Source: a virus | Lineage: Duplodnaviria > Caudoviricetes | IMG/VR virus record: IMGVR_UViG_2814123203_000002 | Coordinates: 1-64,000 of that record | DNA: 64,000 nt | Strand: one strand, 5' to 3' | In this document: positions 2,235 to 64,000 of the stretch, piece after piece | Layout: the number at the start of each line of letters is the position of its first letter | Position numbering within the stretch: position 1 is the first letter of the stretch | Notes under the pieces: generated by a model | What the model was told of the DNA's origin: nothing | What the model saw: the letters and a program-made list of their open reading frames with translations, nothing else | Databases searched by the model: none | Made by a program: the position numbers and the translations under genes

Positions 2235-2286
2235 ACGACCTCCAAAACTTGTGAATCTATATGCATTGAAACTGGTGGAAATTGGG

Positions 2287-2331
2287 ATAAAACAAGGGAT
2301 TATCATGAAAATTGACATTCCCTTGTTTTAT
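2287..2331 (-). terminator. Stem-loop after the bacteriocin precursor gene
   Basis: ATAAAACAAGGGA...TCCCTTGTTTTAT inverted repeat directly after the stop codon. Confidence 0.6.
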
Positions 2332-2337
2332 GATAAA

Positions 2338-2532: not shown

Positions 2533-2771
2533 GCTCTCACCTCCTCGTAGATTAATATGATTTATAGACAAGGAATAAATCCTCGGCTACCATACAAACA
2601 TGTTTTTCGGGAAGATGCATCACCCCTTAGCAAGATCGTCACCATTGCATTGAGAGACCATCCCTTGAAAAGTTTCTTCTACAAGTGTGACGATCATAAA
2701 GGGTGCAGTACTAAAACACTGATTCTACGAAACTATCGTACAGTAGAACAGCTCGTATTGTAAGATGCCTT

Positions 2772-3272
2772 TCAAATAAATAATATTAATAGACACCCAG
2801 TAATTACTTGAAACATTATTTCTTTTTTTGGTCGTTCTGAAATATTGTTTTGTTTATTAGTAAAAAAATAAATAACGTATAGGATAATTGCACATGAACT
2901 TGTTAATATAAAATTCCATGATGTTGTTGAAAATAAAGTCACAATTGCTATTGTTGAGAAAATAAGTTTTGACCCAACAGAAACAAAATATATTTCATTT
3001 ATTAATTTTTTATCTTCCTTTTTAAATACAATTTTAGACATTAGTATCAATAATAGTCTCGCTAAAATTAGAAATATTGAAAGGAGTAATACTGTAAATA
3101 TTGAACTTACCACAGCTAGAACAGTCACTTGATTATGAGTCAAACTGATACCTTTATTAATTGCCTCATTAAAAATTTCTGATTTTCTTACTGTAGAGTT
3201 CATAACTATGGAAGCTAAAATGTATAAAAAAAGAATGAAGAAGAACGCTAACTTATGCTTTTTCATTTTCAT
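2772..3272 (-). CDS. Yip1-like membrane protein of the bacteriocin cluster
   Basis: About five TM segments; typical position in circular bacteriocin loci. Confidence 0.6.
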   Translation of the reverse strand: MKMKKHKLAFFFILFLYILASIVMNSTVRKSEIFNEAINKGISLTHNQVTVLAVVSSIFTVLLLSIFLILARLLLILMSKIVFKKEDKKLINEIYFVSVGSKLIFSTIAIVTLFSTTSWNFILTSSCAIILYVIYFFTNKQNNISERPKKEIMFQVITGCLLILFI

Positions 3273-3281
3273 TAACTCCTC

Positions 3282-3806
3282 TCAAAAATAGCAAATTTTC
3301 AAAGCTTCAATTAAAGAAGCAAAAATCAAAAACACATTAGAAACAAGATAGGTTTTTAAAATCTTTTTTTTGTTTTTTAGAATGGATTCATTTTTAAATA
3401 CTATTTTTAATATTTTAGTCGAAATAACAAATGCTATTGAGAGTAATAATATAGTGGAAAGTGTTTCTGGAATGAAATGTGGATATGTACTTATTGCGGT
3501 AATAAGTCCTTTTTCCTTTAAAATAACCGCAAAGCTTTCTCCAAAAACAAAATATGTGGCTATTACAGGAATTGCAGATACAACATAGAAGAAGATAGAG
3601 CAAAATATAATAATCAAACCAATGAAAAAATTGTGAAAAAAAATTTTGAAAAATGTTTCAATGAAATTTAATCCATCAAAACTTTTAATTTTGATTTGAC
3701 TTATATCTTCAAGAAAATATCCGTAAAAAAACCCTACTGAAATACTTAGACCAATTAAGAAGATGGCTACTTTATGTTCAACAGAAATATAAGCTTTCAT
3801 ATTCAC
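3282..3806 (-). CDS. SpoIIM/DUF95 family membrane protein
   Basis: IFFHN and PHFIPE motifs and C-terminal ASLIE are characteristic of DUF95, a hallmark of circular bacteriocin clusters. Confidence 0.85.
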   Translation of the reverse strand: MNMKAYISVEHKVAIFLIGLSISVGFFYGYFLEDISQIKIKSFDGLNFIETFFKIFFHNFFIGLIIIFCSIFFYVVSAIPVIATYFVFGESFAVILKEKGLITAISTYPHFIPETLSTILLLSIAFVISTKILKIVFKNESILKNKKKILKTYLVSNVFLIFASLIEALKICYF

Positions 3807-4069
3807 CTCACCAAGAATCTTTTTTTCATGGTTGCTTCTATGTAAGTAGGATGAAATCTTTAATCACACATACCAAATCGTTGAACTTATTCGCGGTTAG
3901 AGACAAAAATTTGGAATATTCATATGACACATATATGGATTTATACCATATATATACATTTGTAGTCAACACTTTACATGAAAATACACTTTTCCTAAGC
4001 TTCCCTGTTGGATAGTATCTGCTTGTGATGTGATATTTGAGCAAATTCCAACAGGTTAGCTTAACCATT

Positions 4070-4282
4070 TTAAGATGTGTAAAATATTCCAAAATATGGT
4101 CTTAGAGGAAGTAGTTTATGATACTCTAAAAGGTAAGTGTCTAATTCTTGACTTAATGTAACAACAGTTCTGTCTGTGAAGGGTTTTTTCTCGTTTACTG
4201 CTTGTACTAGTTGCTGCCGAACAGATTCAATTTTTTCAATTAAGCAGGTATGTTTATCACTAAAAAGAGCTGTAATGATCAA
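4070..4282 (-). CDS. Spo0E-like aspartyl-phosphate phosphatase family protein
   Basis: IESVRQQL...VVTLSQELD with the SQELD signature; TTG start after GAAAGGGG. Confidence 0.8.
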   Translation of the reverse strand: MIITALFSDKHTCLIEKIESVRQQLVQAVNEKKPFTDRTVVTLSQELDTYLLEYHKLLPLRPYFGIFYTS

Positions 4283-4422
4283 AACACCCCTTTCATGATT
4301 TTTACAGTTACGATGGTTGGTACCACCATCTATAAACTGCTTCTGATACAATCATAACAGAGGTTGTTCAGAATCATATCATATTGTTTTTTTGTGCAAC
4401 CCTTATCTCTATATACAAGCGA

Positions 4423-4442
4423 AATGACGCCAAATGGCGTCA
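4423..4442 (-). terminator. Short hairpin downstream of the peptide gene
   Basis: TGACGCCA-AA-TGGCGTCA palindrome. Confidence 0.4.
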
Positions 4443-4482
4443 AGTGATTTTTGAATCTTTATCATGAATGGAGCTCTTCGGC

Positions 4483-4593
4483 TTATTGCAGAAATGTTTT
4501 TACTTCCCATGGAACATTATCAAAAAGTTTTAAAGCAACAAGCAATGTTAAAAGTAGAGTTGCCTTTAATTTGATTTTTTTCATGATTACCAT
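4483..4593 (-). CDS. 36-aa putative secreted signalling pro-peptide (absent from ORF track)
   Basis: MVIMKKIKLKATLLLTLLVALKLFDNVPWEVKTFLQ; basic N-region plus hydrophobic core; RBS AGGGGAG immediately after the receptor stop. Confidence 0.55.
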   Translation of the reverse strand: MVIMKKIKLKATLLLTLLVALKLFDNVPWEVKTFLQ

Positions 4594-4602
4594 CTCCCCT
4601 AT

Positions 4603-5880
4603 TTATTTAGAATTTAAAAAATCCATTAATGAATTAGCTTTTTGGACAATTTCGTGGTTTATCTTATTGTCATTAAACATAGTTTGTGAAATCAACAATA
4701 ATGAAATAGAAGCTTCTTTATAATGACCAATCTTGATGTATTCTGATGCACTCTTTAAATAGCTATCAATTGCTAAGCTTACTTGATTTTTGCTTTTTAG
4801 CAATTTTCCTTTAAGTCGGAAATAGTAAGCGAATTTGGACTTTATATAAGGAGTAGCGTAGTCCTTTTGGGTTGTTTCCGTCATCAGATCTTCGTATTGG
4901 AAAAGCCATCCCACATCTAGATCTTTTTTGTAAAGATACAAGTCTAATAATTCAGTAACAGCACTAGTGAGAGTGTAAGCGCATGGTTGCTGCAAATAGC
5001 TATTTAATTCTGAAATAGCCAAGTCAATATTCCCCGTTTTTCCATTAATAAAAGCAATCATTAATTTAACATTGTTAGGAACAAACGGATATGTAAACTG
5101 ACTGTACTTCTTTAGATACAATTGACACATGTCATATTGTTTTTGGTGATAATAAGCACTACAAACATTGTATATAGCATGTGCTTGGTATTCCCCTTTA
5201 CCGTGTTCTGCTACGTACAAGCCTAGCTCAATCGCACTACAATAATCCATAAGACTATAGGCGTGTACACTGAGTGCATAATTAAGCTTTATTTGGTCGT
5301 TAATATCCAAAAAATTTGAGTAATCCAACACTTTTTTCCCAAACTGATATGTCTGATCTAATTTAGTAAAATCATTTCGTTCGATCATGTACTTTTTGTA
5401 CAGAGCTTTTGCAAATGTAGGCATAATGCCATGATTGCGCGAGTATTCAATGATTAGACCATATAGAGATAGTTTAATATCTGTATTCTCTACGGAATCT
5501 GCTACTTTTTGGAGTTTCCCTACTAAATCTAAAGTATCTTCTTTAGGTGATTCAAGATATTTGGTAGCAATTTTGGTTATTAAAGAAAGTTTACTGAATG
5601 TTTCAATTGCCTTCAGAAGTAAAGAAAAAATGGCATCTGCTTTGTGGCCGATCTCGATATACTTCTCTATGATGTCATCAGAGGGGATTTCCAACACAAT
5701 TCCTATGGATTCGATAATTTTAAAATCAGGACGCTTCACTTCACCCTTTTCAATCCTTGATAAGTTGCCCTTATCAATGCCAACGAGTTCTTGCAGCTTT
5801 GACAAACTGATTTTTTTTCTTTGGCGATAATACTGGATAAGATCACCTAATGTTGTAGGCTTCTCAGTAACGGTGTGCAC
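4603..5880 (-). CDS. XRE-HTH + TPR regulator (RRNPP-type receptor)
   Basis: N-terminal HTH (LSKLQELVGIDKGNLSRIEKG) then helical TPR-like repeats; followed by peptide and Spo0E-like genes. Confidence 0.8.
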   Translation of the reverse strand: MHTVTEKPTTLGDLIQYYRQRKKISLSKLQELVGIDKGNLSRIEKGEVKRPDFKIIESIGIVLEIPSDDIIEKYIEIGHKADAIFSLLLKAIETFSKLSLITKIATKYLESPKEDTLDLVGKLQKVADSVENTDIKLSLYGLIIEYSRNHGIMPTFAKALYKKYMIERNDFTKLDQTYQFGKKVLDYSNFLDINDQIKLNYALSVHAYSLMDYCSAIELGLYVAEHGKGEYQAHAIYNVCSAYYHQKQYDMCQLYLKKYSQFTYPFVPNNVKLMIAFINGKTGNIDLAISELNSYLQQPCAYTLTSAVTELLDLYLYKKDLDVGWLFQYEDLMTETTQKDYATPYIKSKFAYYFRLKGKLLKSKNQVSLAIDSYLKSASEYIKIGHYKEASISLLLISQTMFNDNKINHEIVQKANSLMDFLNSK

Positions 5881-6244
5881 AATTTCACCTGCCTTTTTTT
5901 AAATTTCAATAACTATATATTACCATTTAGATAAAAAAATGTAAACCAAATAGATCAACTTTCACAAGCAAAGAAAAAGCCTAATTCCTGCGACTTAAGA
6001 TTGTAAAGATATTTGAGAATACTGGAAGATTTCATATCAAGGACAAGTAAAATGGTGGATAAAGATAAAGAACAAGGAATAAAGGGGCGATTTATCAATG
6101 AGGATGAAGACAGGAGTAGATGGTTCAATCAAGTAGCATCAAAACAGCGATACTTTTTCTGTCTTGCTGAATTCCTCGTATTTTGCTACAATATGTAAAA
6201 AATAAACATTTATGGTATTATGGGATTAGAAAGGAGTTGAAAAA

Positions 6245-7593
6245 ATGGATAACCGGATTGCTTTGCGAATTGAACTTGAAAAAGCCATAGCAGAAACTGG
6301 ATGTACGTTATCAAGTATTGCAGAATACGGCGGACTATCTATCGGTAACTTAAGTGCCAGCCTGCAACATAAGGAAAAACTTCAACCTATCACCATGAAA
6401 CAATTAGATACGTTAACAGAAGCCTTAGGCTTACCCGAAGGACATTACTATGAATATTACCTTGCTGAGGTTTTTTCTCATAACAACAAAGTTTCCATTC
6501 CCAGAATGAAATCCTTTTTAATTCGCTGTGCCCAACTGGGGAAAACCGACTTGATTATGAATGCGATCCATATCTTGGTGGAACATCCTAAGTACACCGA
6601 ACTGCTTTTTTCTGTAGCAGAGGAATTGTATTTGAATGGTCTTGTTGAAGAGTCGCTTCTTTTTTACGAAGAAATCATTCAGGAAGAAAAGTACAATCAC
6701 TCTGATCGTTTGACCATCAGTCATTATCGAATATTTAGAGCCAGTATTGGGTCAGATGCTGAAGAAAACTACAAAGCAGTGATTCTTTTGAAGACTTCCG
6801 CAAAAACCTCCCTGAAAATTTTCAGTTGGATGCTTTGTTAAAGCTATCCAAAGTTTGCCTCTCCCTTAAAAAATGGAATTTAACTGAGCAATTTGCCGAT
6901 GAATTAAGAATACTTTCTACGATCAGGTACCAAGAAGAACTGCTGCTAATGAAAGAGGGCAAAACAGAACCATTGATAACAGAACGCCCTCTTGTTGTGT
7001 ATTATGGTCAATCCTATCTAATAAAAAGTATTGCCCTATTTAAACAAGGTCATTATGAGAGAGCTAAGCAATATATAGAAGGATACGAAGATCTTAGTTG
7101 GTTTGAGATTTTAGATGAACAAGGTAAGAAAGAAGTAGACAAGTTTCGTTTGTGGGCAAAAGCGAATAAATATAGTGTAGAACTACTTTTAGGAAATGTC
7201 AGCGTGCTTGATGAGTATACAAATTATCTTACCGAACACCCTAACGAAATTTCCCTTGGTCTGCTGGTGATTATACAATCTGCAAATGCATATGGATTTA
7301 GCATAGATCATATCTTAGAACGATTCCCTGAGCCTTCGCAAGAGGATAATAATGTTGTGAAGATTGAACGATATTTTAGATTTCATTACCAGAAATCGAT
7401 TTATATGTTTAATCAGCAACGTTTTGCAGAAGGGCTAGAAAGTATTTTATACTGTCTGTCTTTGGCTATTTCTAACAAGGAATATTTTGAAACTGTATTA
7501 TGTACAGCACAGTTTCAGCATTATCTGAACTATGCTTCGGATTCCCAGAAAGAACAATTCGCGAATATCATGAAAGAGGTGTTGAAAAGGTGA
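6245..7593 (+). pseudogene. HTH-TPR RRNPP-type receptor split by a 1-nt frameshift
   Basis: ORFs 6245..6841 and 6826..7593 join (VILFEDFRKNLPENFQLDALL) if one T is added to the T-run at 6786-6789; real mutation or sequencing error. Confidence 0.75.
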
Positions 7594-7727
7594 AAATTAA
7601 GAATTGGATTCTATGTATTGCAATAGCGATTACGTTGATGAGTGGATCTGCTTTTAGTGCAACGACCCAAAAAGCAGAAACGAAAAATCCTGTTATGGTT
7701 TTTATTGAACATGGAGCTGATGATTAA
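7590..7727 (+). CDS. 45-aa quorum-sensing pro-peptide
   Basis: MKIKNWILCIAIAITLMSGSAFSA signal peptide plus C-terminal ...VFIEHGADD; GTG overlaps the receptor stop. Confidence 0.75.
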   Translation: MKIKNWILCIAIAITLMSGSAFSATTQKAETKNPVMVFIEHGADD

Positions 7728-7769
7728 AAAATGTCCAGAACATGAGATTCAACTTTGTTCCATGAAGCT

Positions 7770-7810
7770 AAAAGACTGCTTTCCTTATCATCAAGGGGAG
7801 CAGTCTTTTT
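7770..7810 (+). terminator. Rho-independent terminator
   Basis: AAAAGACTGCTTTCCTT...AAGGGGAGCAGTCTTTTT. Confidence 0.8.
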
Positions 7811-7914
7811 AACGATTTGGATGAAACGCGTGTTTGTTCTAGTAGTCGCAAAAGATTGTCGAGAGTTATTACTTTAATTTTGAGAATGCGCTAGGCTTGC
7901 GGGTTATTTTTTTA

Positions 7915-7944
7915 TTTACACATTTCCATATCCTGTGTTATTAT
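7915..7944 (+). promoter_or_regulatory. SigA-type promoter for repeat-mimic RNA 1
   Basis: TTTACA-N18-TATTAT with TGn extension; ACACA...TGTGT arms in the spacer. Confidence 0.55.
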
Positions 7945-7953
7945 GGAGACACC

Positions 7954-8020
7954 AACGCAGGGCGTATTGAAATTTATTCATTTGCTTAAACTTTGACCGT
8001 AACGCATGGCGTTTTGAAAT
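7954..8020 (+). CRISPR. Mini array: two degenerate CRISPR-like repeats with a 17-nt spacer
   Basis: AACGCAGGGCGTATTGAAAT (7954-7973) and CTTTGACCGTAACGCATGGCGTTTTGAAAT (7991-8020); ACGC/GCGT stem and (A/T)TTGAAAT 3' end as in class 1 Cas6-processed repeats. Confidence 0.6.
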
Positions 8021-8038
8021 ATGCGTCTTGTGCTTTGT

Positions 8039-8066
8039 AAAAACCCTACCTTATGGTAGGTTTTTT
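8039..8066 (+). terminator. Terminator of repeat-mimic RNA 1
   Basis: CCTACC-TTAT-GGTAGG followed by a T-tract. Confidence 0.75.
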
Positions 8067-8097
8067 CCTTTTTACATCATATTGACTTTCAAAACTC

Positions 8098-8127
8098 TTG
8101 TACCACATCCAAAAGATGTGCTATAAT
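8098..8127 (+). promoter_or_regulatory. SigA-type promoter for repeat-mimic RNA 2
   Basis: TTGTAC-N18-TATAAT with TGc extension; CACATC-N5-GATGTG palindrome in the spacer. Confidence 0.7.
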
Positions 8128-8133
8128 TCAATT

Positions 8134-8167
8134 GTCGCACCCCACTTGGTGGTGCGTGGTTTGAAAT
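8134..8167 (+). CRISPR. Solitary type I-C-like CRISPR repeat
   Basis: GTCGCACCCCACTTGGTGGTGCGTGGTTTGAAAT matches the I-C pattern GTCGCAC...GGTGCGTGGATTGAAAT; starts at the predicted +1. Confidence 0.8.
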
Positions 8168-8181
8168 AAATTTACTTTTAT

Positions 8182-8219
8182 GAGGAAACCTATCTTTATA
8201 AAGATAGGTTTCCTCTTTT
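8182..8219 (+). terminator. Terminator of repeat-mimic RNA 2
   Basis: Perfect 16-bp stem GAGGAAACCTATCTTT/AAAGATAGGTTTCCTC followed by TTTT. Confidence 0.8.
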
Positions 8220-8224
8220 AAAGA

Positions 8225-8513
8225 ACCCCACCTAAATGGTAGGGTTTTTGCTTACCATAGATGGTTTATATCGTAGGTCTGAGACTCCTCGCCGTCCCAT
8301 TCACTTATGTATTCCTCTATTGTATTGCGCACGTGTTCCCCTGCTTTTCGATACGACATCCCAATATGATCAGCTTCTCCATACACATGGCTCTTGAGGC
8401 AGCCCATATCAAAAAATATGTGCGGCTTGTCAAGTACCACTAAACAGCAAGCCTTGATGATTAGTGTGGGTAAATGCGTACCCTTCTTGATTTACATAAA
8501 GAATAGTCCCCCA
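8225..8513. repeat. Segment with a diverged, internally deleted copy at 63358-63509
   Basis: Shared hairpin, TTGCTTACCATAGATGGTTT, AAAAAATATGTGCG, CCTTGATGATTAGTGTGGGTA and TACATAAAGAATAGT blocks in the same order. Confidence 0.85.
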
Positions 8514-8550
8514 GTCGAACGACTGAGTAAATGCTTTCTTTAGTTCATCC

Positions 8551-8820
8551 TTATACTTTACTTTCCTCCTTAAGATTCAAATATCTTTTATGGTAGTATT
8601 GCTGACATTCTGAGCAATACTCAGGGTTTTCTTTGTTCCCGTGTGGGGATGATGGAAAGTCCATCTGTCCGCCGCATTGAGGACATAACCCTTTCTCTGT
8701 ACGTTCTTCTCTAATTCTCCTTTGCCTGGTTCTCTCAAAGCACTTTCGAGAGCAGTCTACTGCCCGAGGATGTTTGGAAACAAAAGATTTTTGACAATCG
8801 GGAGCTATACACTTTTTCAT
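8551..8820 (-). CDS. Small double zinc-finger-like protein
   Basis: Four Cys pairs: CIAPDC, CSRKC, CPQC, CSEC. Confidence 0.65.
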   Translation of the reverse strand: MKKCIAPDCQKSFVSKHPRAVDCSRKCFERTRQRRIREERTEKGLCPQCGGQMDFPSSPHGNKENPEYCSECQQYYHKRYLNLKEESKV

Positions 8821-9087
8821 TCATCTCAATCCTTCTATGTCCATGATAAAATATGAGGTCATCTCATCCACATATTTCTTTTTTGATGTTTGTATTCGGC
8901 GGGAAGCTCCATACATTTTCTTTCCTTCACAATATACATTGGAGGATGAGGATATTATTATTTCGCTTATTTCACTTGACATATCCCAAGTGAAATAATA
9001 GTATCTTCCATATGTACCGCCTGAGACCCTGTCATACAATTCCGCTGCCCTTTCTTGAAATTCTTTTATTAGCTCCATTTCAATCAC
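8821..9087 (-). CDS. Hypothetical protein, 88 aa
   Basis: Translationally coupled to the downstream ORF; GAGGTG at the start region. Confidence 0.55.
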   Translation of the reverse strand: MIEMELIKEFQERAAELYDRVSGGTYGRYYYFTWDMSSEISEIIISSSSNVYCEGKKMYGASRRIQTSKKKYVDEMTSYFIMDIEGLR

Positions 9088-9132
9088 CTCTGATAATTGT
9101 AATAATCATGTTCATCGTAGCATGGAATTAAA

Positions 9133-9213
9133 GTTGTAATTTAGTACCTATTAAGGAATTGAAACATGGATTTGTATTTTATCTGTTATGAAATACCTAT
9201 AAGGAATTGAAAC
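9133..9213 (+). CRISPR. Mini array: two type I-B-like repeats with a 19-nt spacer
   Basis: GTTGTAATTTAGTACCTATTAAGGAATTGAAAC (9133-9165) and GTTATGAAATACCTATAAGGAATTGAAAC (9185-9213) fit the GTTT...TACCTATAAGGAATTGAAAC family of Bacillota. Confidence 0.8.
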
Positions 9214-9266
9214 AACTAATCCAATGTTTCTTTAGAAGAACCCATTATTTTTTGGGGCGACCGCCC

Positions 9267-9770
9267 TCAGAGCCATTCTACGTCGTACCGTTCTTCGACG
9301 CGATCAATCACTTCGGATGTCTTTTCCTCTATGATTTCATCAAGTGCGATTTCTTCCCATTTTAAAATAATTTCTTCTGCTTTTTCGGGCAACAACTCGG
9401 AAAACGTTGCCCACTTGTACAGATTATCTTCGATATATCCGTCGTAACGCCCTTCGGCGTTTTTACGTAAGATCTCCCTGTATTCCTCCAAAAGGGATGA
9501 ATCTCCGTCTAGTTCGTTTTTAAGTTCGTCGTCCATATGCAAATGGTCGATGGGGTAGAACCATTTTTGCGTTGTAATCCCAATAATGTTCTCTCCCTCT
9601 AGCCAGTTGTTATGGCCCGCGAAAACCTCGGTGAAGAACTCTGTTGCTTCTTCACCATTGTGCCTAGCGTAAAGTTGGACCTCGCCACCGCGTTTTCTGT
9701 ACTCAGCGGCTTTCTTAATACACTTTTCTACCGCTATTTTACACTTTTCTAAATCAATTTTAATTTTCAT
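9267..9770 (-). CDS. Acidic hypothetical protein, 167 aa (anti-CRISPR candidate)
   Basis: AGGAGG RBS, own promoter, D/E-rich C-terminal half; function inferred from context only. Confidence 0.6.
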   Translation of the reverse strand: MKIKIDLEKCKIAVEKCIKKAAEYRKRGGEVQLYARHNGEEATEFFTEVFAGHNNWLEGENIIGITTQKWFYPIDHLHMDDELKNELDGDSSLLEEYREILRKNAEGRYDGYIEDNLYKWATFSELLPEKAEEIILKWEEIALDEIIEEKTSEVIDRVEERYDVEWL

Positions 9771-9826
9771 ATATACATTACCTCCTGAATTTAATTTTAT
9801 TTTCCATTTCTTTCTTACTGTTACTT

Positions 9827-9877
9827 ATAAATCTACACGAACGTGAAGATTTTGTCAACACGTTCGTGTAGATTTAT
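9827..9877. promoter_or_regulatory. Perfect 19-bp inverted repeat enclosing a minus-strand promoter
   Basis: ATAAATCTACACGAACGTG-N13-CACGTTCGTGTAGATTTAT; minus-strand TTGACA (9858-9853)-N17-TAGATT (9835-9830). Confidence 0.85.
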
Positions 9878-9915
9878 TTGAATTTATTTCGTAGAATAGG
9901 TATGAGGTGGTAATT

Positions 9916-10128
9916 ATGCTGAGCTTTGATCCTCTACGTGAGTGGTTTAACAAAACGGGAAGACAACGCACTGATATGTATATAGACTGCGGATTCGCTC
10001 CGCAAACAGTCGCGAAAGTATGGGGAGATCGGTTTCCGATACGAACCGATGTGATAGAGAAAATCTGCGAAACATATGGCCTGCGGATCGAGCAGGTACT
10101 TGTTTGGAAAAACGAGGAGGATAAGTAG
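9916..10128 (+). CDS. Small Cro/C1-type HTH protein
   Basis: MLSFDPL...GFAPQTVAKV...TDVIEKICETYGLRIEQVL is an HTH_26-like pattern; GAGGTG RBS. Confidence 0.8.
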   Translation: MLSFDPLREWFNKTGRQRTDMYIDCGFAPQTVAKVWGDRFPIRTDVIEKICETYGLRIEQVLVWKNEEDK

Positions 10129-10130
10129 AA

Positions 10131-10757
10131 ATGGATATTCAAATGTTTGACCCGAAAAAGGGAGTGCCAGCCACGGAGAATGAGCGAACCTATTTCCGGA
10201 ATGGCTACGGAGTGGGGATCGGTGTAATCTATCTGCCGTCGAAAAACATGCCGGAGATGTTTACGCAAAATTGGCCGACAATGGAGGTGCGTGGCGAAAC
10301 GGTGCATGCTGCGCCAGAATTTCGCGTTTTTGAAACGAAGAAATCGGCCGTGAGAATATTCCAGTACAATCCGGTACAGTTCCACTTAAAAGAACACGTT
10401 TTTAACGGCATCCAACTGTTCCATTTGCTTATTGCGTGCTTAGACGGTAATCCCGAACCATTTTCCGGGGAAACAACGCTGAATCCAGGTGATCCGTTGG
10501 CAGCTCGTTTTTTAGAAGTTATGGCGGAATCTCCGTACTTCGTGATTAATACATATGCCAAATTTGAGTACTTCCAAACGTTCTTTGCGGACAACCCGTT
10601 CAAAGAGGCGGTAAGATCGTTCCAATACACTGATAAGCCGCAGCCTAAGGATGTTTTTATGTGGGCAAAGGCGGAGTTAGAACGAACGGTACCGTTTAAG
10701 TATCGGGAGTTTGACTGGGAACCGCCCCAGAAGACGTTACGTGTTAATTTCGTGTAA
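10131..10757 (+). CDS. Hypothetical protein, 208 aa
   Basis: GAGGAGG RBS; coupled to the HTH gene. Confidence 0.65.
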   Translation: MDIQMFDPKKGVPATENERTYFRNGYGVGIGVIYLPSKNMPEMFTQNWPTMEVRGETVHAAPEFRVFETKKSAVRIFQYNPVQFHLKEHVFNGIQLFHLLIACLDGNPEPFSGETTLNPGDPLAARFLEVMAESPYFVINTYAKFEYFQTFFADNPFKEAVRSFQYTDKPQPKDVFMWAKAELERTVPFKYREFDWEPPQKTLRVNFV

Positions 10758-10812
10758 ACAGGAAAGAGCAGGAGGAACAAAAAACCTCACTGCTCTTCTT
10801 GGAGGGGACTAC

Positions 10813-10920
10813 ATGAAGCGTAACTGGGTATTAGACGAGTTGATTGAGCATTTTACCTTTCTTCCAAATGAGGGGCACACTATCACGTATCATCGGACCC
10901 AAATCAGAGAGTTTTTAACG
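10813..10920 (+). pseudogene. Remnant of a Tn3-family transposase N-terminus
   Basis: MKRNWVLDELIEHFTFLPNE joined directly to GHTITYHRTQIREFL, two normally separated DUF4158-type motifs; GGAGGGG RBS. Confidence 0.55.
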
Positions 10921-10924
10921 AGAT

Positions 10925-11440
10925 TTAAAGACGACTCTTCTTTTTGTTTTTCAATTCTTTTCTTACGGTTTTTTGCCAGTGCATTCTTTTTTCTTTAATA
11001 AAGTAGGTTAGTCCAATAGAAAAAGCATCTGATTCATCTTCATTTGAAAAATTGATATCAGGATATTTCAAAAGAAGGGTATTTTGTATCTGTTTTTTTG
11101 TAGCATTTCCATGCAATATAGTTGCTTTACATGTCTTTGGCATGTAACAATATTGTTTCTTGTCTTTAAACATCCATCTTATTAAACCTTGTGCCATACA
11201 TAAAACCTTGCTTGAATTGTTGTGTCTAATAAAGACATCTTCTAAAACAACAACAGATGCGGGAAGTTCTTGCAAATGTTTTGATACACCTTTAAAGATT
11301 ATATTTAATCTTTTACCATAAGATAAACCTTCTTTTGTAGGGAATGATGTAATTACTACAGGATCAAAAGTATTTAAATTAAATATTACGAGTCCAGTCC
11401 TAGATAGACTTATATCAAATGCATATAGGAATTCTTTCAA
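10925..11440 (-). CDS. RuvC-like Holliday junction resolvase
   Basis: AFDISLSRTG, VVLED, GNATKKQIQ, DESDAFSIG. Confidence 0.85.
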   Translation of the reverse strand: MKEFLYAFDISLSRTGLVIFNLNTFDPVVITSFPTKEGLSYGKRLNIIFKGVSKHLQELPASVVVLEDVFIRHNNSSKVLCMAQGLIRWMFKDKKQYCYMPKTCKATILHGNATKKQIQNTLLLKYPDINFSNEDESDAFSIGLTYFIKEKRMHWQKTVRKELKNKKKSRL

Positions 11441-11499
11441 ATGATCACCTTTACTATATATAAATTTAGTTATATTTCTTCAAATTGATTCTAATTTAT

Positions 11500-12042
11500 T
11501 TACTTTATAGGAAATTTCAAATTATAATTAATCATAAAATCTGGAAGTCTCTCTTTTGTTTTGAATGCTTTGCCAGTTTGATTTACAATCCCAATAGCTT
11601 CTGTTGAAAGCATGTCACATATTTCATTACCAAAAATTCCAGAATGCCCTTTAACCTTAATAAAGTTTATATTAGGAAACTTTTTGAAAAGCTCTAATAA
11701 TTTAATCCACAAATCTTTATTTTCTACTGGTTTTCCATTAGAATTTTTCCATCTGTTATCCCTTTTCCATTTCTTGTACCATTTATCATTAATACAGTTA
11801 ACTATATATGCTGAATCCGAAAAAACATTTATTTTCTTGTCGGTAGGTTTTAATTTCCTTAAACCATATATAACAGATGATAATTCCATTCTATTGTTAG
11901 TTGTATTAATAAAACCAGATTGAAACATCTTTTTTGTATTGCCGTACTCTATAAACACTCCATAGCCACCAATCTTAGTTGTATGGTTTCTGGCTCCACC
12001 ATCACACCATACATTAATTTCTTTTTCTTTATCAAATGTCAT
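11500..12042 (-). CDS. rnhA: Ribonuclease HI
   Basis: CDGGA, TNNRMEL, SDSAY, NKDLW, VKGHSG, NEICD. Confidence 0.95.
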   Translation of the reverse strand: MTFDKEKEINVWCDGGARNHTTKIGGYGVFIEYGNTKKMFQSGFINTTNNRMELSSVIYGLRKLKPTDKKINVFSDSAYIVNCINDKWYKKWKRDNRWKNSNGKPVENKDLWIKLLELFKKFPNINFIKVKGHSGIFGNEICDMLSTEAIGIVNQTGKAFKTKERLPDFMINYNLKFPIK

Positions 12043-12046
12043 GTCA

Positions 12047-12693
12047 TTAATCTCTAAACCACCAAATTGAATTTGAAAAAATAAAATCAACTACTTCATA
12101 CCTGTCTTCCTCATATTGTTCTAAATCTTCTTTGTCAAGATAACAAGGTGGATTAAATCCATTTGGATTTTCTGATTTTATCAGCACATTGCCACCATCT
12201 AAATATTTAGTTATTATTGCTGGTTGTTCTTTCCAAAATATTTTTCGATTTTCAATTTCATTGAGGAAATCCATAGAAAAGAAATTGATAGGAAAACCTT
12301 CTAATTTATAGATAATACTTCTTGCTTCATTCAAACAATAATCTAATGTATTTCCTAAAACATTAAAGAATTTTTCACCGTTTCTAGTAATATAACAGTT
12401 ACATGTTTCTCCTACTTCCGTCTCATCCCATTTCGTTTTAATGTAATTAGTTTCGTCTATTACAATCCCCATCTGACTACATGTCCACTAAATTGTATTA
12501 AATTCTCATATACTGGAGTCTCATTTCTAGGACAACACCAATAGCAATTTTCTCCCCATTTTCCACCGATACTATGGTTATATCCTTCTAGCCGATATAC
12601 TTTCATTGGGGCACCTTTAACAACCACATCCCAATCTAAAGGATGAAGTTTCGATAAATCTGTTTCTTTGTTGATTAATTTGATTTCTGTCAT
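12047..12693 (-). pseudogene. Hypothetical phage gene split by a frameshift
   Basis: ORFs 12460..12693 and 12047..12472 fuse (VRWGIVIDET) if one base is added to the G-run near 12468. Confidence 0.6.
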
Positions 12694-12746
12694 AAGCCCT
12701 CCTAATTTTTCTATAAAATGATTGTTTTATATAAAATTTATTATAT

Positions 12747-15700
12747 TTAATGTTTATTGTTCTTATAAACAATTGAACATTTTTCTAAGTAATATTGCAT
12801 TTCAGGTTGCTTAACATATTCACCATCAATAAACTTGACTTTATTTTTCTTTGAAGTTTTCTTAATTTCAATAATGTCACCAATGTTAAATGCTTCGATA
12901 TCTTCCCTTCCATAAAACTTATCCTTTCTAATTTTGATTGACTTCTCTTTTCCTGAGTTTAAGATTATACATTTTACTGTAGGTGTATACTTTAGATCAA
13001 TTTCCATTATCAATGCAAATGATTTAGGCATGTTTGGGTAAGATGTTTTGATAAAACCATAAATATCTTTTTCAAAAAAAGCTAACTCTGATGGATTAAC
13101 ATCTGGAAAATTGTCGAGTAGATTTTTTTCAAATTCGATTAAAACAGTCTGTCTTTTCTTTTTAGTTTTATCTTTATGTTGTTTATTATATCTATTCTTA
13201 CCGTTTGTTAATTCGTTATAAATAGTTAATAATTTTTCCATATTTCCAAATTCAGAGAAGTATCCTAGCCTTATTAAGATATCAAGTTGTTTAGAATTAA
13301 TTGATGTTTTTTCTTTCATATCTATCAAGAGATTAACGAAGTCCTCATATTTATTTGCTGCTAACATTTGAAGTTCCTCAGCAATTTGTCTATTACAATG
13401 TTTTAGTAAGGAGATACCATAAGTGATTGCCCCATCTTCAACCTTACATAAAGGTTGAGCGTTTCTAAATGTTGGTTTGCTTAATTTGATTTTAAGCCTT
13501 TTTAACTCTTTGTGTGCTACATCTAATTTATCATGGTGTGCTTCTAATGAATTGAACCAAGCACAAATGAATTCTAATGGATGATAGGTTTTTAAAAATG
13601 CACATATAAAAGCAATCATGGCATATGCCTGAGAATGAGCTTTGTTAAATGAATATTTCGCGAAGTCAAGCATAGTTTGCCATAATTCATCTATTTGTGA
13701 TTCTGTCCATCCTCTGGATTTTAAACCTTTTCTTAGTTCAGGTTCTACCCTTTTTAGTTTTTTTGCATCCTTTTTTCCAGTTGCCTGTCTCAATAAATCT
13801 GGGTTTCTGAGACCAGCGTATCGACCAATTGAAATCAGCTGTTCTTGGAATACAATAATGCCATAGGTAACCCCTAGTATTTCCTCAAGATCTGGATGTA
13901 AGTACTCGATTTTTTCTTTACCATGCATTCTATTAATATAAGTATCAATGTACTTTTTACTTCCGGGACGATATAGTGCATTTACTGCTGAAAGATCGTT
14001 TAATCCATGTGGTTGCATTTTTTTCATTGTTGTCTTCATACCGTCTGATTCAAATTGAAATACACCGTCAGTCCAACCTTTTCTAAATACTTTTAATACA
14101 TTTTCGTCTTTATAATTAAGGTTTCTAATGTAATTTGTATCTTTTCCAATCATATCTAAAGTATCGTAAATTACTGAAATTGTTCTCAATCCGAGAAGAT
14201 CAACTTTAACCAACCCCAAAGCTTCAGCATCTTTCATGTCTATATGCAACACATATTCTTCATCTTTTACAGATATAGCTGTATATTTCTGAATATCTTG
14301 GGTACTAATCACTTTACCACAGGGATGAACACCATAAGAGCGCGGTAGTCCTGCAAGTTTAATGGCATAATCAAAAAGTTTAGGATATTTTTTAAGAAAG
14401 GGATTTAAAAGATTTTTACTGATAGCTTCTTGAATTGTTAAATCATCCATTGTTTTTGTAATTTGATTTGTTATATCAAAAGGGATATTAAGAACTCTTC
14501 CAACATCTTTAATTGCTGATTTATCCCATATATAAGAAAATTGACATAGGGCAGCTACCTTATTTTGTCCGTGATCTTTAACAATACTTGCAAGTACTTG
14601 TTCGCGTTCTGTTGTACCAAAATCTAAATCAAAATCAGGTATTTTTAATTCTTCTTTTTTTATTTTTCCATTACGTAACAAATCTAATTGTGCCACATCA
14701 ATAAATCTCTCGAAATAAAGTCCATGTTCAATTGGGTCTATGTCAACAATATTAAGTAAGTAAGCAATAAGACTTCCACCACCAGAACCTCTAGCGATAC
14801 CTCTGCGTTTGACAGAATTTGCGTATCCTTCAACAAGTAAGTAATATCCACTAAACCCCATCTCTTTAATAGCTTTATATTCGTATTGTAGCCTTTTTTT
14901 ATACTCAATCTGTTTTTCTTTGCTTTTTTTGTGTATATTTCTAAATTTCCAGCCAGTTCGGCAAAGATGTTTAAGATAATCGTCTTGATTTTCAAATCCT
15001 TTAGGAATTGTTACTTTTGGGATGATGGCAGATGATAATGGCAATGGAGAATTGCATTTATCTAATATGACCTGTGTTGTACGGATAGCTGATATTTTTT
15101 CTTCGTCAGACAAAGAAATAAGTCTATCCCAAACCTCTTTTTCACTTTGTATTTGTGTATCTAAATAAGTTTCGTCAGCTTCATAACTATCTTTTTTTCT
15201 GTTGATGGCAATAAAAATTTTATGAAGTTCATGATCTTCTTCATTAATAAAATGGCTATCAGCTGTTGCAACATACTTAATACTAAGCTCTTTAGCAATA
15301 TCAATTATTACTCGATTAAGTTGCTGTTGTCTTGGATCTCTATGAGCTTGCACTTCTAAATAATAATCAGAACCAAACACTTTTTGATATTTTCGGGCAA
15401 TCTCTTTGGCTTTCTCTATATTTCCTGAAGTGATATTTATATCTTCAATTCCAATTTTTCCTCCAGCTAACGACTGTTGTAATTCTGACGCCATACAACC
15501 TGACATAACAATTAGTCCTTGAGAATGTTGACTTAGTAATTCAAAATCAATACGTGGTTTAAAATAAAATCCCTCAATATAACCAAGAGAAACAAGTTTG
15601 TTGATATTTTGCCTGCCTTTTTCATTCTTTGCTAGTACAGTTAAATGGTAATATTTATTGTTCTTATCCCTTTCAAAACGGTTTTGGCAAATATAAAATT

Positions 15701-15941
15701 CACATCCATACACAAACTTTAAACTATTTTCTTTTGCCATTTTAAATAATTTAACACTAGAATGGACATTGCCATGCTCTGTAACAGCAAACCCTCTCTG
15801 TTTTAGCGATTTAACTTTACTAACAACATCTTCTGGTCTACCCATTCCATCAAGTAGTGAATAAGCAGTGTGCAAATGAAGATTAACAAAACCATCAGAG
15901 CTACTTACTTGACATTCTACATCATTACACATAGTGGTCAC
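12747..15941 (-). CDS. dnaE: Phage DNA polymerase III alpha subunit (SPbeta YorL-like)
   Basis: PHP domain HLHTAYSLLDG, RGSGGGS, PDFDLDF, KVDLLGL, YSFNKAHS. Confidence 0.95.
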   Translation of the reverse strand: MTTMCNDVECQVSSSDGFVNLHLHTAYSLLDGMGRPEDVVSKVKSLKQRGFAVTEHGNVHSSVKLFKMAKENSLKFVYGCEFYICQNRFERDKNNKYYHLTVLAKNEKGRQNINKLVSLGYIEGFYFKPRIDFELLSQHSQGLIVMSGCMASELQQSLAGGKIGIEDINITSGNIEKAKEIARKYQKVFGSDYYLEVQAHRDPRQQQLNRVIIDIAKELSIKYVATADSHFINEEDHELHKIFIAINRKKDSYEADETYLDTQIQSEKEVWDRLISLSDEEKISAIRTTQVILDKCNSPLPLSSAIIPKVTIPKGFENQDDYLKHLCRTGWKFRNIHKKSKEKQIEYKKRLQYEYKAIKEMGFSGYYLLVEGYANSVKRRGIARGSGGGSLIAYLLNIVDIDPIEHGLYFERFIDVAQLDLLRNGKIKKEELKIPDFDLDFGTTEREQVLASIVKDHGQNKVAALCQFSYIWDKSAIKDVGRVLNIPFDITNQITKTMDDLTIQEAISKNLLNPFLKKYPKLFDYAIKLAGLPRSYGVHPCGKVISTQDIQKYTAISVKDEEYVLHIDMKDAEALGLVKVDLLGLRTISVIYDTLDMIGKDTNYIRNLNYKDENVLKVFRKGWTDGVFQFESDGMKTTMKKMQPHGLNDLSAVNALYRPGSKKYIDTYINRMHGKEKIEYLHPDLEEILGVTYGIIVFQEQLISIGRYAGLRNPDLLRQATGKKDAKKLKRVEPELRKGLKSRGWTESQIDELWQTMLDFAKYSFNKAHSQAYAMIAFICAFLKTYHPLEFICAWFNSLEAHHDKLDVAHKELKRLKIKLSKPTFRNAQPLCKVEDGAITYGISLLKHCNRQIAEELQMLAANKYEDFVNLLIDMKEKTSINSKQLDILIRLGYFSEFGNMEKLLTIYNELTNGKNRYNKQHKDKTKKKRQTVLIEFEKNLLDNFPDVNPSELAFFEKDIYGFIKTSYPNMPKSFALIMEIDLKYTPTVKCIILNSGKEKSIKIRKDKFYGREDIEAFNIGDIIEIKKTSKKNKVKFIDGEYVKQPEMQYYLEKCSIVYKNNKH

Positions 15942-16403
15942 CCTTCTTTTTGTCTACTGGCTGTATACCTACAACATAAGTATTCAGCTTTCAGAATGAC
16001 TATTTCTTATCTTAATATATGAAATTTCTTAAATTAATTTTACTAACAATATTATTATGAAATTCTTCGTCTTGTGTGTGATTCAGTACATAGTGGTCCT
16101 TTAAATTTCCTTCTCTATTTGAGAAACTTTGTAAGTATTTTTAGTTTAAATGGGAAAGTTATATATTTCAGAACCGTTAAAGCATTGCCTGAATCCGAAT
16201 TAATACTGACGTACTTAACTTGGTTTTCCAGCACTAGAGTTATTGAATTCAAGTCTACTTGAAATTAAAAATTTTGTATGGGCTGAAGTTCCATCAGCCC
16301 ATACTGTTCTCTTTCTGATTTTTATCGAATACTCATTATTCATTATATTTAATATCTATTATAATTAGATCATATTCACTCATTTTTTACTCCTTTATAC
16401 AAC

Positions 16404-63925: not shown

Positions 63926-64000
63926 TTTAATATCCTTCCTTTCTTAATTCATGTCGATATGCGCCGAGTTGTTGTAGGTAACGGTCTGCTAATGGTTTGT

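What the first reader, a model, noticed from the sequence alone, without database searches (positions are those of the whole stretch)
7915..10757. Cas-less island with CRISPR-repeat mimics of three families beside an acr/aca-like protein module
Seen: within 1.3 kb lie three unrelated repeat types (a 30-nt ...AACGCATGGCGT.TTGAAAT pair, a type I-C-like single repeat, a type I-B-like pair). Spacers are only 17-19 nt and there are no cas genes in the window. Two units have their own promoter and terminator. Adjacent are small unknown ORFs under an inverted-repeat promoter and a divergent HTH gene. Known: mobile elements use solitary repeat units as RNA anti-CRISPRs (Racrs), often near acr/aca genes, and CreA/CreR-type mini arrays repress transcription through Cascade. 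Inference: one locus that disarms or reprograms several class 1 systems of the host with an RNA panel plus protein inhibitors. I know of no description of such a three-family panel, but cannot exclude one.
Basis: partly seen in the sequence, partly recalled or inferred. Interest (0 to 1): 0.92.

Follow-up and report, generated by a model that had tools for sequence, protein, structure and literature searches.

The report
Phage RNA decoys against bacterial CRISPR
A mobile element of the honeybee pathogen Paenibacillus larvae carries three small RNA genes that imitate CRISPR repeats, one of them a copy of the host's own CRISPR regulator, so it most likely switches off host CRISPR immunity by a recently described route.

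Summary
Window 7915-9231 holds three compact CRISPR-repeat-like units beside unknown small ORFs and an HTH gene with a perfect 19-nt inverted-repeat operator.

The window matches P. larvae plasmid pPLP3 at 100% identity, in a stretch with phage-like replication genes.

**Unit A (decisive result).** Its 18-nt spacer is identical, 18 of 18, to the spacer of a degenerate mini-array directly upstream of a type I-B cas operon in a related chromosome (G116).
- That host guide has one target 100 nt away. It mismatches only at positions 6, 12 and 18.
- The target lies 12 nt upstream of the -35 of the strongest promoter-like site facing cas6.
- Unit A is therefore a mobile-element copy of a host CreR/CreA-type regulator, that is, a "Cracr".

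**Unit B** is a solitary type I-C-like repeat with its own promoter and terminator (Racr-like, or a single-repeat Cracr). It is conserved in at least 6 variants in P. larvae (pro)phages.

**Unit C** is a second Cas6-type mini-array with a conserved short spacer. I could not find its host partner.

The units shuffle as cassettes downstream of the lysin gene in related phages.

The proteins match no known Acr.

Verdict: a new member of known kinds (Racr/Cracr). Expression and activity are untested.

The parts
7915..7944 (+). Promoter of unit A (TTTACA-18-TATTAT, TG before the -10). The same promoter follows the lysin gene in phages Scottie and Unity and in viral contig L170.
7944..7973 (+). Unit A psiR1: 4-bp hairpin ACGC-AGG-GCGT plus 8-nt tag ATTGAAAT. 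The 5' part is diverged and the predicted RNA start lies just upstream of the hairpin.
7974..7991 (+). Unit A guide psiS (TTATTCATTTGCTTAAAC), 18 of 18 identical to the guide of the host I-B mini-array in G116
7991..8020 (+). Unit A psiR2, 21 of 30 positions identical to the G116 type I-B CRISPR repeat by my count on alignment A1, with a compensatory stem change
8021..8039 (+). Conserved post-repeat segment ATGCGTCTTGTGCTTTGTA. It may be a second guide that ends in the terminator. It also pairs with psiR1 in the predicted fold.
   Evidence: no target in G116
8045..8066 (+). Intrinsic terminator of unit A
8098..8127 (+). Promoter of unit B (TTGTAC-18-TATAAT with TGn extended -10), conserved in all 6 B units aligned
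8134..8167 (+). Unit B: solitary type I-C-like repeat GTCGCAC...GCGTGGTTTGAAAT with a hairpin
8168..8219 (+). Unit B variable post-repeat stretch (8168-8181) and terminator hairpin (8182-8215, then Ts)
8252..8440 (-). 62-aa remnant of a 105-aa ORF that is intact next to unit A in phage SV21 and in L176
8551..8820 (-). 89-aa Cys-rich (zinc-ribbon-like) ORF, no family
8821..9087 (-). 88-aa ORF, no family. Homologues lie in phage Scottie (gp21), L176 and four other P. larvae plasmids.
9136..9165 (+). Unit C psiR1 (CRISPR-DR2-like, hairpin CCT-ATTA-AGG plus tag ATTGAAAC)
9166..9184 (+). Unit C guide-like spacer ATGGATTTGTATTTTAT(CT). The first 17 nt are identical in Scottie, SV21 and L170.
9185..9213 (+). 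Unit C psiR2 (Rfam CRISPR-DR2, 28 bits, E 0.031)
9214..9231 (+). Conserved post-repeat segment AACTAATCCAATGTTTCT. It may be a second guide. It is complementary to tag plus spacer start.
9267..9770 (-). 167-aa ORF of a small orphan family. Confident model, no structural relatives. A paralogue lies beside the Cas8c-C-terminus-like gene.
9827..9877 (.). Perfect 19-nt inverted repeat around a minus-strand promoter (TTGACA-17-TAGATT): putative operator of the HTH protein
9916..10128 (+). 70-aa HTH_26 regulator (Aca-like by position only)
10131..10757 (+). 208-aa ORF co-transcribed with the HTH gene. Found only in P. larvae elements. No family, and no usable model.

Best explanation
The island is an anti-CRISPR RNA cassette set carried by P. 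larvae temperate phages and by this phage-like plasmid.

**Unit A** is a Cracr, a mobile-element copy of the host type I-B regulatory mini-array (CreR/CreA type).
1. It is transcribed from its own promoter.
2. Host Cas6 cuts it 8 nt before the guide.
3. The 18-nt guide loads into a short I-B Cascade.
4. That complex binds, without cutting, the site next to the host cas promoter.
5. This tightens cas repression and competes with immune crRNAs for Cas proteins.

**Unit B** is a solitary I-C repeat that ties up I-C Cas proteins (Racr). If its post-repeat stretch is a guide, it acts as a single-repeat Cracr.

**Unit C** does the same for a third Cas6-type repeat family.

The HTH protein probably regulates the neighbouring small ORFs through the inverted repeat.

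Shown here: the anatomy, the guide identity, the host target, the conserved hairpins and the cassette mobility. Inferred: transcription, processing, loading, repression and any role of the proteins.
For: **Replicon.**
- The window equals P. larvae plasmid pPLP3 (100% over 3001 nt).
- It carries phage-like replication genes.
- The annotation lists no cas gene other than one Cas8c-like fragment. I read records 1-18965 and 18000-67999 of 128,414 bases.

**Host locus in G116.**
- It holds cas6-cas8b-cas7-cas5b-cas3-cas4-cas1. Cas5b, Cas3, Cas4 and Cas1b score above the curated cut-offs. Cas6 and Cas7 score below them, and Cas8b gave no hit.
- A 4-repeat array precedes the operon.
- Between array and cas6, on the opposite strand, lies psiR-TTATTCATTTGCTTAAAC-psiR.

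**Guide and target.**
- The guide is 18 of 18 identical to window 7974-7991.
- The best other site in 20 kb is TTATTTATTTGTTTAAAG after TCA. It mismatches only at positions 6, 12 and 18.
- 0 of 300 shuffled guides found such a site.
- The site ends 12 nt upstream of TTTACA-16-TATAAT with TG, 11 of 12 matches, the best promoter-like site facing cas6.

**Hairpin covariation.**
- 13 A-type repeats and pseudo-repeats were aligned.
- 96.2% of cells are paired, and 3 of 4 pairs change on both sides.
- 0 of 500 shuffles reach the score.

**Expansion.** L170 carries the same promoter followed by a 4-repeat array with variant guides. This matches the 'Cracr arrays' of bioRxiv 10.1101/2024.10.29.618823 (section 7).

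**Unit B.**
- 6 aligned units, 5 of them distinct, share promoter, repeat ends and terminator.
- The I-C repeat family occurs in 33 of 136 family genomes.

**Literature (passages only).**
- The pPLP3-bearing strain has I-B plus I-C systems.
- P. larvae has III-B, and ERIC I strains also have I-B.
Against: - There are no expression data. No sequencing run was listed, so this carries no weight either way.
- G116 is a species-representative genome, not the strain that carries pPLP3. Its species name was not given by any tool. I infer a P. larvae-like host from prophage similarity.
- G116 has no I-C array. Its only I-C-like repeat is the prophage unit. It has only three degenerate C-type repeats. 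In that genome two of the three units therefore have no cognate system.
- No target was found for the unit C guide or for any post-repeat segment. Hits were at control level.
- Unit C lacks a clear promoter and terminator in the window.
- All B units carry GGTTTGAAA, where every I-C array repeat listed or read from its 12 loci has GGATTGAAA. The host's own I-C repeat was not seen.
- The cas promoter and the PAM (TCA) are predictions.
- No protein resembles a known Acr or Aca.
Confidence: 0.7

Rival explanations
1. The host element copied by unit A is a CreA antitoxin, not a CreR. Its target would then control a small toxin transcript on the other strand, between the mini-array and the CRISPR array. 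Unit A would keep that toxin silent while other factors disable CRISPR, that is, suppress a CreTA safeguard.
For: - The target is followed on the guide's strand by about 20 nt and then a strong hairpin with a T run. That could be a short transcript.
- Cracrs that silence CreT are described (sections 10-12 of bioRxiv 10.1101/2024.10.29.618823, seen as headings and as passages).
Against: - The scan found no promoter-like site on that strand overlapping the target. The only strong site faces cas6.
- I saw no toxin-like mini-ORF with rare codons, but I did not test this formally.
Confidence: 0.15
2. All three units are plain decoys (Racrs) that only soak up Cas6, Cas5 or Cas7. The spacers are conserved by descent and have no guide function.
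For: - Racrs work as repeat mimics without guides (PMC10651486, passages).
- Unit B's post-repeat stretch varies and has indels among the 6 units.
- No targets were found for C or for the post-repeat segments.
- In L177 the unit C spacer is cut down to 6 nt.
Against: - Unit A's guide is identical to a host guide that has a Cascade-style target beside the cas promoter.
- L170 stacks several different guides under one promoter. That has no purpose for a pure decoy.
Confidence: 0.12
3. The units are inert debris: pieces of host CRISPR loci picked up by recombination or imprecise excision and carried along.
For: - Unit C in the window has lost the promoter and terminator seen in the phage copies.
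- The neighbouring ORF 8252-8440 is truncated.
- Phage Unity keeps only the promoter stub, followed by transposases.
Against: - Units A and B each have a tight promoter, repeat and terminator layout, with the RNA start predicted at the repeat.
- The hairpins are kept through compensatory changes.
- The same units recur at different places in at least 8 elements.
Confidence: 0.08
4. The units are virus-borne mini-CRISPR arrays used against competing phages (superinfection exclusion) with the host's Cas proteins.
For: Mini-arrays in viruses with this role are known (recalled: Medvedeva et al. 2019, not read here). P. larvae hosts carry several prophages (PMC13497268 passage).
Against: - The spacers are 18-19 nt, too short for the usual interference-competent 32-38-nt spacers reported for P. 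larvae (PMC7998209 table).
- Unit A's spacer equals a host regulatory guide.
- I did not scan phage genomes for protospacers.
Confidence: 0.04

Closest known systems
Cracr RNAs and Cracr arrays (Liu et al., bioRxiv 10.1101/2024.10.29.618823)
   Same: - A degenerate mini-array on a phage or plasmid, outside any cas locus.
- Its short guide matches that of the host CreR/CreA. Unit A matches 18 of 18, against that paper's bar of 9 PAM-proximal nt.
- The host target lies next to a cas promoter.
- Guides are stacked under one promoter in a relative (L170).
- A repeat-guide-terminator layout is described there for V-A.
   Different: - The host is P. larvae. The word 'Paenibacillus' does not occur in the main text. 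Table S2 could not be opened, so these elements may already be listed.
- That paper says guides within one array always target variants of one type. Here three separate transcription units of three repeat families sit in one 1.3-kb stretch.
- Activity is untested here.
Racrs / solitary repeat units, e.g. RacrIC1 (Camara-Wilpert et al. 2023, PMC10651486)
   Same: Unit B is a solitary I-C-like repeat on a mobile element, with a hairpin and its own promoter, near unknown small genes and an HTH gene.
   Different: - Unit B is followed by about 14 nt and a terminator, so it could carry a guide.
- No known acr gene is adjacent.
- The host's own I-C repeat was not available for comparison.
- All B units differ from the I-C array repeats seen by A to T in the handle.
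Host CreR/CreA mini-arrays of type I-B systems (bioRxiv 10.1101/2023.03.10.532045; Li et al. 2021, recalled)
   Same: The G116 element fits on three counts:
- psiR1 keeps the 5'-tag part and psiR2 keeps the 3'-handle part.
- The guide is partly complementary to its target.
- The target lies next to the cas promoter.
   Different: The window's copy is on a mobile element. It keeps an intact tag in psiR2 followed by a further conserved segment, which the host copy lacks.
acr-aca operons
   Same: A small HTH gene, an inverted-repeat operator in a divergent promoter, and variable small ORFs of no known family (L176 and L177 carry different sets).
   Different: There is no homology to any known Acr or Aca. 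The same layout fits any phage regulatory switch.

Membership tests
Cracr (viral mimic of CreR/CreA) | Encoded on a virus or plasmid, outside a CRISPR-cas locus | tested here: met
   The window equals plasmid pPLP3. Homologues lie after the lysin gene of phages. The annotation read (records 1-67999) has no cas operon.
Cracr (viral mimic of CreR/CreA) | Repeat-like flanks that keep the hairpin and tag of the host CRISPR repeat | tested here: met
   Unit A against the G116 I-B repeat: alignment A1. 96.2% of cells are paired and 3 of 4 pairs are compensatory.
Cracr (viral mimic of CreR/CreA) | Guide shares at least 9 PAM-proximal nt with a host CreR/CreA guide | tested here: met
   Unit A: 18 of 18. 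Units B and C: no host counterpart found. For them the feature is untestable with the genomes at hand.
Cracr (viral mimic of CreR/CreA) | Host target with a PAM at or next to a cas or creT promoter | tested here: met
   The G116 site at L130 1866-1883 matches at 15 of 15 non-flipped positions, follows TCA, and ends 12 nt from the -35 of the best promoter-like site. Promoter and PAM are predictions.
Cracr (viral mimic of CreR/CreA) | Represses cas or creT transcription and relieves CRISPR interference | not testable with these tools
   This needs reporter and interference assays.
Racr / solitary repeat unit | Single CRISPR-like repeat on a mobile element with no array within 100 bp | tested here: met
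   Unit B is the only I-C-like repeat in the 100,830-bp contig. The same layout occurs in 5 further units.
Racr / solitary repeat unit | High similarity in sequence and fold to the host's own CRISPR repeat | tested here: inconclusive
   Unit B matches the ends of the I-C repeats found in 33 of 136 family genomes and forms a hairpin. The I-C repeat of the P. larvae host was not available. The handle differs at one base in all B units.
Racr / solitary repeat unit | Sequesters Cas proteins in aberrant complexes | not testable with these tools
   Biochemistry is needed.
acr-aca operon | HTH regulator with an inverted-repeat operator in the promoter of adjacent small genes | tested here: met
   HTH_26, E 1.8e-7. 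Perfect 19-nt inverted repeat around a promoter-like site.
acr-aca operon | At least one gene homologous to a validated Acr, or shown to inhibit CRISPR | tested here: not met
   No Pfam, PHROG or PDB-sequence hit. The 167-aa model (pLDDT 95.6) has 0 Foldseek matches at E<=0.001 in PDB or BFVD. Inhibition was not tested.
Virus-borne mini-CRISPR for interviral conflict | Full-length spacers matching related viruses | tested here: not met
   The spacers are 18-19 nt. Unit A's equals a host regulatory guide. A protospacer search in phages was not done.

The most novel reading that the evidence does not exclude
One mobile island, shuffled as cassettes among P. larvae phages and a phage-like plasmid, reprograms rather than merely blocks three different CRISPR systems at once.

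Each unit would carry guides, including 'repeat-guide-terminator' guides after the last repeat. These would steer two I-B-type Cascades, or the shared-tag III-B complex, and the I-C Cascade onto host promoters.

The conserved pairing between the start and end of units A and C would be a new control or maturation feature.

A stand-alone Cas11c-like gene and an orphan protein family on the same replicon would be the protein arm against I-C.
Probability: 0.2. Interest if true: 0.75.

Novelty: new member of a known kind. Interest (0 to 1): 0.55.

Why it matters
P. larvae causes American foulbrood, and its phages are being developed as treatments. A published AcrFinder screen found no anti-CRISPR genes in these phages (PMC7998209 passage).

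These RNA units would explain how temperate phages and pPLP3 persist in strains with many spacers.

They also give a clean natural example of a type I-B Cracr together with its host CreR-like partner and target. The match ignores every sixth base.

The cassette hotspot after the lysin gene is a practical place to look for further anti-defence genes.

The layout, three repeat families as separate units, extends what the Cracr preprint reports, which is arrays aimed at a single type.

Tried and rejected
**Host partner or target for unit C. None was found.**
- In G116, 33 hits at up to 3 mismatches against 28 for the reversed control.
- In the family scan, 2 of 136 genomes had a hit. Both lie inside coding sequence by my reading.
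- The metagenome scan gave 0.
- The Cmr locus of G116 has no C-type repeats within 20 kb.

**Post-repeat segments as guides.**
- Unit A segment: 2 hits against 1 for the control.
- Unit C segment: 6 hits against 4 for the control.
- No hit at up to 1 mismatch in 76.6 kb of G116 pieces or in the contig itself.
- The first script for this used frames that were off by 1-2 bases for the two unit A strings. It was redone.

**Cas type of the C repeat family.**
- I tested 10 ORFs next to arrays in 4 loci, chosen by me from the 80 listed.
- Only one gave a Cas6 hit.
- The subtype remains recalled, not tested.

**Sequencing runs.** None was listed, and no RNA holder was listed.

**Proteins.**
- The Atlas search gave no usable hit.
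- The 208-aa model had pLDDT 34.7 and was not searched.
- The Cas8c-like ORF has no near-length relatives other than itself and no longer relatives by word search.
- Rfam at gathering score and ARAGORN found nothing in the window.

**Not seen.**
- Supplements were closed. Table S2 of the Cracr preprint, Tables S4 and S5 of PMC3944939 and Table S1 of PMC7998209 may list these elements or the host repeats.

**'Not in print' rests on these searches.**
- 97 papers, 15 listed.
- 0 papers.
- Zero occurrences of 'Paenibacillus' in the main texts searched.

**Papers, and what I saw of each.**
- 10.1101/2024.10.29.618823: abstract and outline, section 7, passages.
- Passages only: PMC10651486, PMC7998209, PMC3944939, PMC13497268, 10.1101/2023.03.10.532045.
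- One passage each: 10.1101/2021.05.04.442622 and 10.64898/2026.07.27.740549.
- Recalled, not read: Medvedeva 2019, Faure 2019, Li 2021, and the internal-start origin of Cas11c.

Full report
**What the window is**

Bases 7800-10800 match plasmid pPLP3 of Paenibacillus larvae strain SAG 10367 at 100% identity over 3001 bases, offset by 165. The held assembly is one 100,830-base contig, labelled by the tool as a virus record.

The annotation of the public record shows a replicon full of phage-type replication genes: DNA polymerase III alpha, RuvC, RNase H, ligase, ribonucleotide reductase and a DnaB-like helicase. I read records 1-18965 and 18000-67999 of 128,414 bases and saw no cas operon.

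The island has 36-39% G+C. Most of the rest of the window has 26-35%, with richer patches at about 26-30 kb and 40-44 kb.

**The observation**

*Unit A*
- Promoter-like site TTTACA-18-TATTAT, 7915-7944, 10 of 12 matches with TG.
- A 5'-shortened pseudo-repeat with hairpin ACGC-AGG-GCGT and tag ATTGAAAT (to 7973).
- An 18-nt spacer (7974-7991).
- A fuller pseudo-repeat (to 8020).
- A conserved 19-nt segment, then a terminator at 8045-8060.

*Unit B*
- An extended -10 (TGcTATAAT, 8119-8127).
- A 34-nt repeat GTCGCAC...GCGTGGTTTGAAAT (8134-8167) that folds into a hairpin.
- About 14 nt, then a 15-17-bp terminator hairpin with a T run.

*Unit C* (9136-9231)
- Two repeats of the CRISPR-DR2 type. 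The Rfam hits are below the gathering score: 28 and 20.4 bits against 37.
- They are separated by 18-19 nt.
- In the window it has no convincing promoter or terminator.

*Protein and regulatory module*
- The inverted repeat (19 nt, perfect) brackets a minus-strand promoter-like site.
- The divergent gene encodes an HTH_26 protein.

**Relatives: a cassette hotspot**

In the phage collection of 50,697 records:
- Unit A occurs in 1 record, phage SV21.
- Unit B occurs in 5 records from 3 phages: Scottie, Heath and Halcyone.
- Unit C occurs in 3 records from 2 phages: Scottie and SV21.

In IMG/VR:
- The exact tag-plus-spacer of C occurs in 1 contig, L170.
- The exact tag-plus-spacer of A occurs in 0 contigs.
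- A degenerate A-type repeat pattern occurs in 2 contigs.
- The unit B promoter-repeat junction occurs in 4 contigs.

In Halcyone-type phages the site directly after the lysin gene carries the unit A promoter, followed by different cargo:
- Unit B alone in Halcyone and in a G116 prophage.
- A promoter stub, then unit C, ORFs, HTH, the 208-aa gene and unit B in Scottie.
- A promoter stub, then transposases in Unity.
- In L170, a four-repeat A-type array with three or four different short guides, then unit C, ORFs and the HTH module.

In the phage copies unit C has a good promoter (TTGACG-17-TATACT) and a terminator.

In L177 the unit C spacer is reduced to 6 nt, while the segment after the second repeat is kept.

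**The host side, which decides unit A**

A DNA search of 136 genomes of the family found strong matches only in G116, a 4.29-Mb genome. Five of the 136 had any match at E<=0.001.

One match is a prophage unit B. The other lies in a chromosomal CRISPR locus. Its layout is:
- A four-repeat array (GTTTGATAGTAACACGAGGTGTATTGAAAC) and a hairpin.
- Then, on the opposite strand, a degenerate mini-array whose spacer is identical, 18 of 18, to unit A's.
- Then cas6-cas8b-cas7-cas5b-cas3-cas4-cas1. Cas5b, Cas3, Cas4 and Cas1b score above the curated cut-offs. Cas6 and Cas7 are weak, and the 642-aa ORF in the Cas8b position gave no hit.

Within 20 kb the best other match to this guide lies 100 nt away, after TCA. 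It differs only at guide positions 6, 12 and 18. Established knowledge of type I Cascade structure says these are the bases that do not pair.

None of 300 shuffled guides found such a site.

The site ends 12 nt upstream of the -35 of TTTACA-16-TATAAT with TG, 11 of 12 matches. This is the best promoter-like site in the region, and it faces cas6.

This is the CreR/CreA layout described for type I-B, I-E and V-A systems (bioRxiv 10.1101/2023.03.10.532045, passages).

Thirteen A-type repeats and pseudo-repeats from host and mobile elements keep a 4-bp stem:
- 96.2% of cells are paired.
- 3 of 4 pairs change on both sides.
- 0 of 500 shuffles reach the score.
- Caveat: the sequences are related, and I read the structure from them.

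**Unit B and type I-C**

The pattern GTCGCAC-N8-13-GNGCGTGGNTTGAAA occurs in 33 of 136 family genomes, mostly as long arrays with GGATTGAAA.

Six aligned B units, five of them distinct, share the promoter, both repeat ends, GGTTTGAAA and the terminator. The stretch between repeat and terminator varies and has indels.

G116 has no I-C array.

A passage in bioRxiv 10.1101/2021.05.04.442622 names the pPLP3-bearing strain as an example of a genome with I-B and I-C systems, each with its own repeats. I could not read that chromosome.

**Unit C**

Its repeat family is widespread. One array I checked sits next to a Cas6 gene.

G116 holds only three degenerate copies within 2.1 kb.

I found no host mini-array and no target for its spacer.

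**Proteins**

- The 62-, 88-, 89-, 167- and 208-aa ORFs have no Pfam or PHROG family.
- The four largest have no meaningful PDB sequence match.
- The 167-aa protein belongs to a small family of 26 representatives among 1.84 billion.
- Its model is confident (pLDDT 95.6) but has no Foldseek match at E<=0.001 in PDB or BFVD.
- The 208-aa model failed.
- Related islands carry different small ORFs under the same HTH module.

This fits an anti-defence island, but it does not show any Acr.

**Mechanism**

Unit A most likely yields a Cas6-cut RNA with an 8-nt tag and an 18-nt guide. This RNA would load into a shortened I-B Cascade and bind the site beside the cas promoter. The result would be deeper cas autorepression, with Cas proteins drawn away from immune crRNAs. 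That is the Cracr mechanism (bioRxiv 10.1101/2024.10.29.618823; abstract, section 7 and discussion passages).

A sub-variant is that the host element guards a toxin (CreA) and unit A keeps that toxin silent.

Unit B most likely acts as an I-C Racr (PMC10651486, passages). Alternatively it is a single-repeat Cracr, a layout the preprint describes for V-A.

Unit C is assigned by analogy only.

**Comparison and novelty**

The kinds are known.

What is new here:
- The host, for which a published screen found no Acr.
- A clear I-B example with host partner and target.
- Three repeat families placed as separate units within 1.3 kb. The preprint reports that guides within one array target variants of one type.

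I file it as a new member of known kinds.

**Limits**

- There is no expression or activity evidence.
- The host evidence comes from a species representative, not from the carrier strain.
- The promoter, PAM and processing sites are predictions.

Noticed in passing
window 63927-64000, continuing to 64250 in the contig (L185:1928-2251, minus strand): A stand-alone 107-aa ORF matches only the last ~90 residues of Cas8c/Csd1 (TIGR01863 positions 479-570 of 588, E 1.1e-7; PF09709 27.7 bits against a cut-off of 27). By recall, that region is the part made separately as Cas11c in type I-C systems. On a replicon with no cas operon it could be a protein mimic aimed at I-C. The near-length search found only the protein itself, and the word search found no longer relatives.
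   Followed up: partly
contig 64263-64571 (L185:2264-2572, minus strand): The gene next to the Cas8c-like ORF is a 102-aa paralogue of the island's 167-aa ORF (45% identity over 83 residues, E 2e-21). This orphan family therefore sits twice beside CRISPR-related items on the same replicon.
   Followed up: partly
window 7956-7967 with 8021-8032; window 9161-9172 with 9219-9231: In the predicted folds the segment after the last repeat pairs with the start of the unit. In A, psiR1 pairs with ATGCGTCTTGTG (z -2.56). In C, tag plus spacer start GAAACATGGATT pairs with AATCCAATGTTTC. The C pairing is also predicted in the Scottie copy. The meaning is unknown.
   Followed up: partly
L170/L176 1800-2060 (IMG/VR contig): A four-repeat A-type array sits under the same promoter. 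Its guides are ATAATAAAAGTCTTTCATT, TTATTCATTTGTTTAAAC, ATGTATCTTATTTTGTAG and ATGCGTCTTGTGCTTTGTA. The third and fourth look like variants of one another. No target was found in the G116 stretches fetched (76.6 kb) or in the window's own contig.
   Followed up: partly
L148 (G116:C1:2748078-2750192): Three degenerate C-type repeats lie within 2.1 kb, one pair around a normal 37-nt spacer. They are interleaved with two similar ORFs of 161 and 218 aa. This looks like a decayed array.
   Followed up: no
L130 9793-9810 (G116, cas4/cas1 overlap): A second near-match to the unit A guide, with one mismatch outside positions 6, 12 and 18, lies inside the adaptation genes. It may be chance.
   Followed up: no
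L171 10370-10421 (IMG/VR contig): A leader-like sequence plus a single A-type I-B repeat, with no array. The flank resembles the leader end of the G116 array.
   Followed up: no
window 8222-8262: The hairpin after unit B and the bases that follow match the terminator and flank found after unit A in SV21 and L170. Unit B therefore looks inserted as a cassette between two copies of that terminator.
   Followed up: no
L003 5620-6120 (phage SV21): A gene annotated as an antirestriction protein lies about 400 nt from unit C. This fits an anti-defence neighbourhood.
   Followed up: no
window 4603-7593: Just upstream of the island lie a 425-aa HTH protein with a long helical C-terminal part, two TPR-like ORFs and a tiny 45-aa ORF. 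The layout looks like a Rap/Rgg-type quorum-sensing module. Only weak Pfam hits were seen.
   Followed up: no
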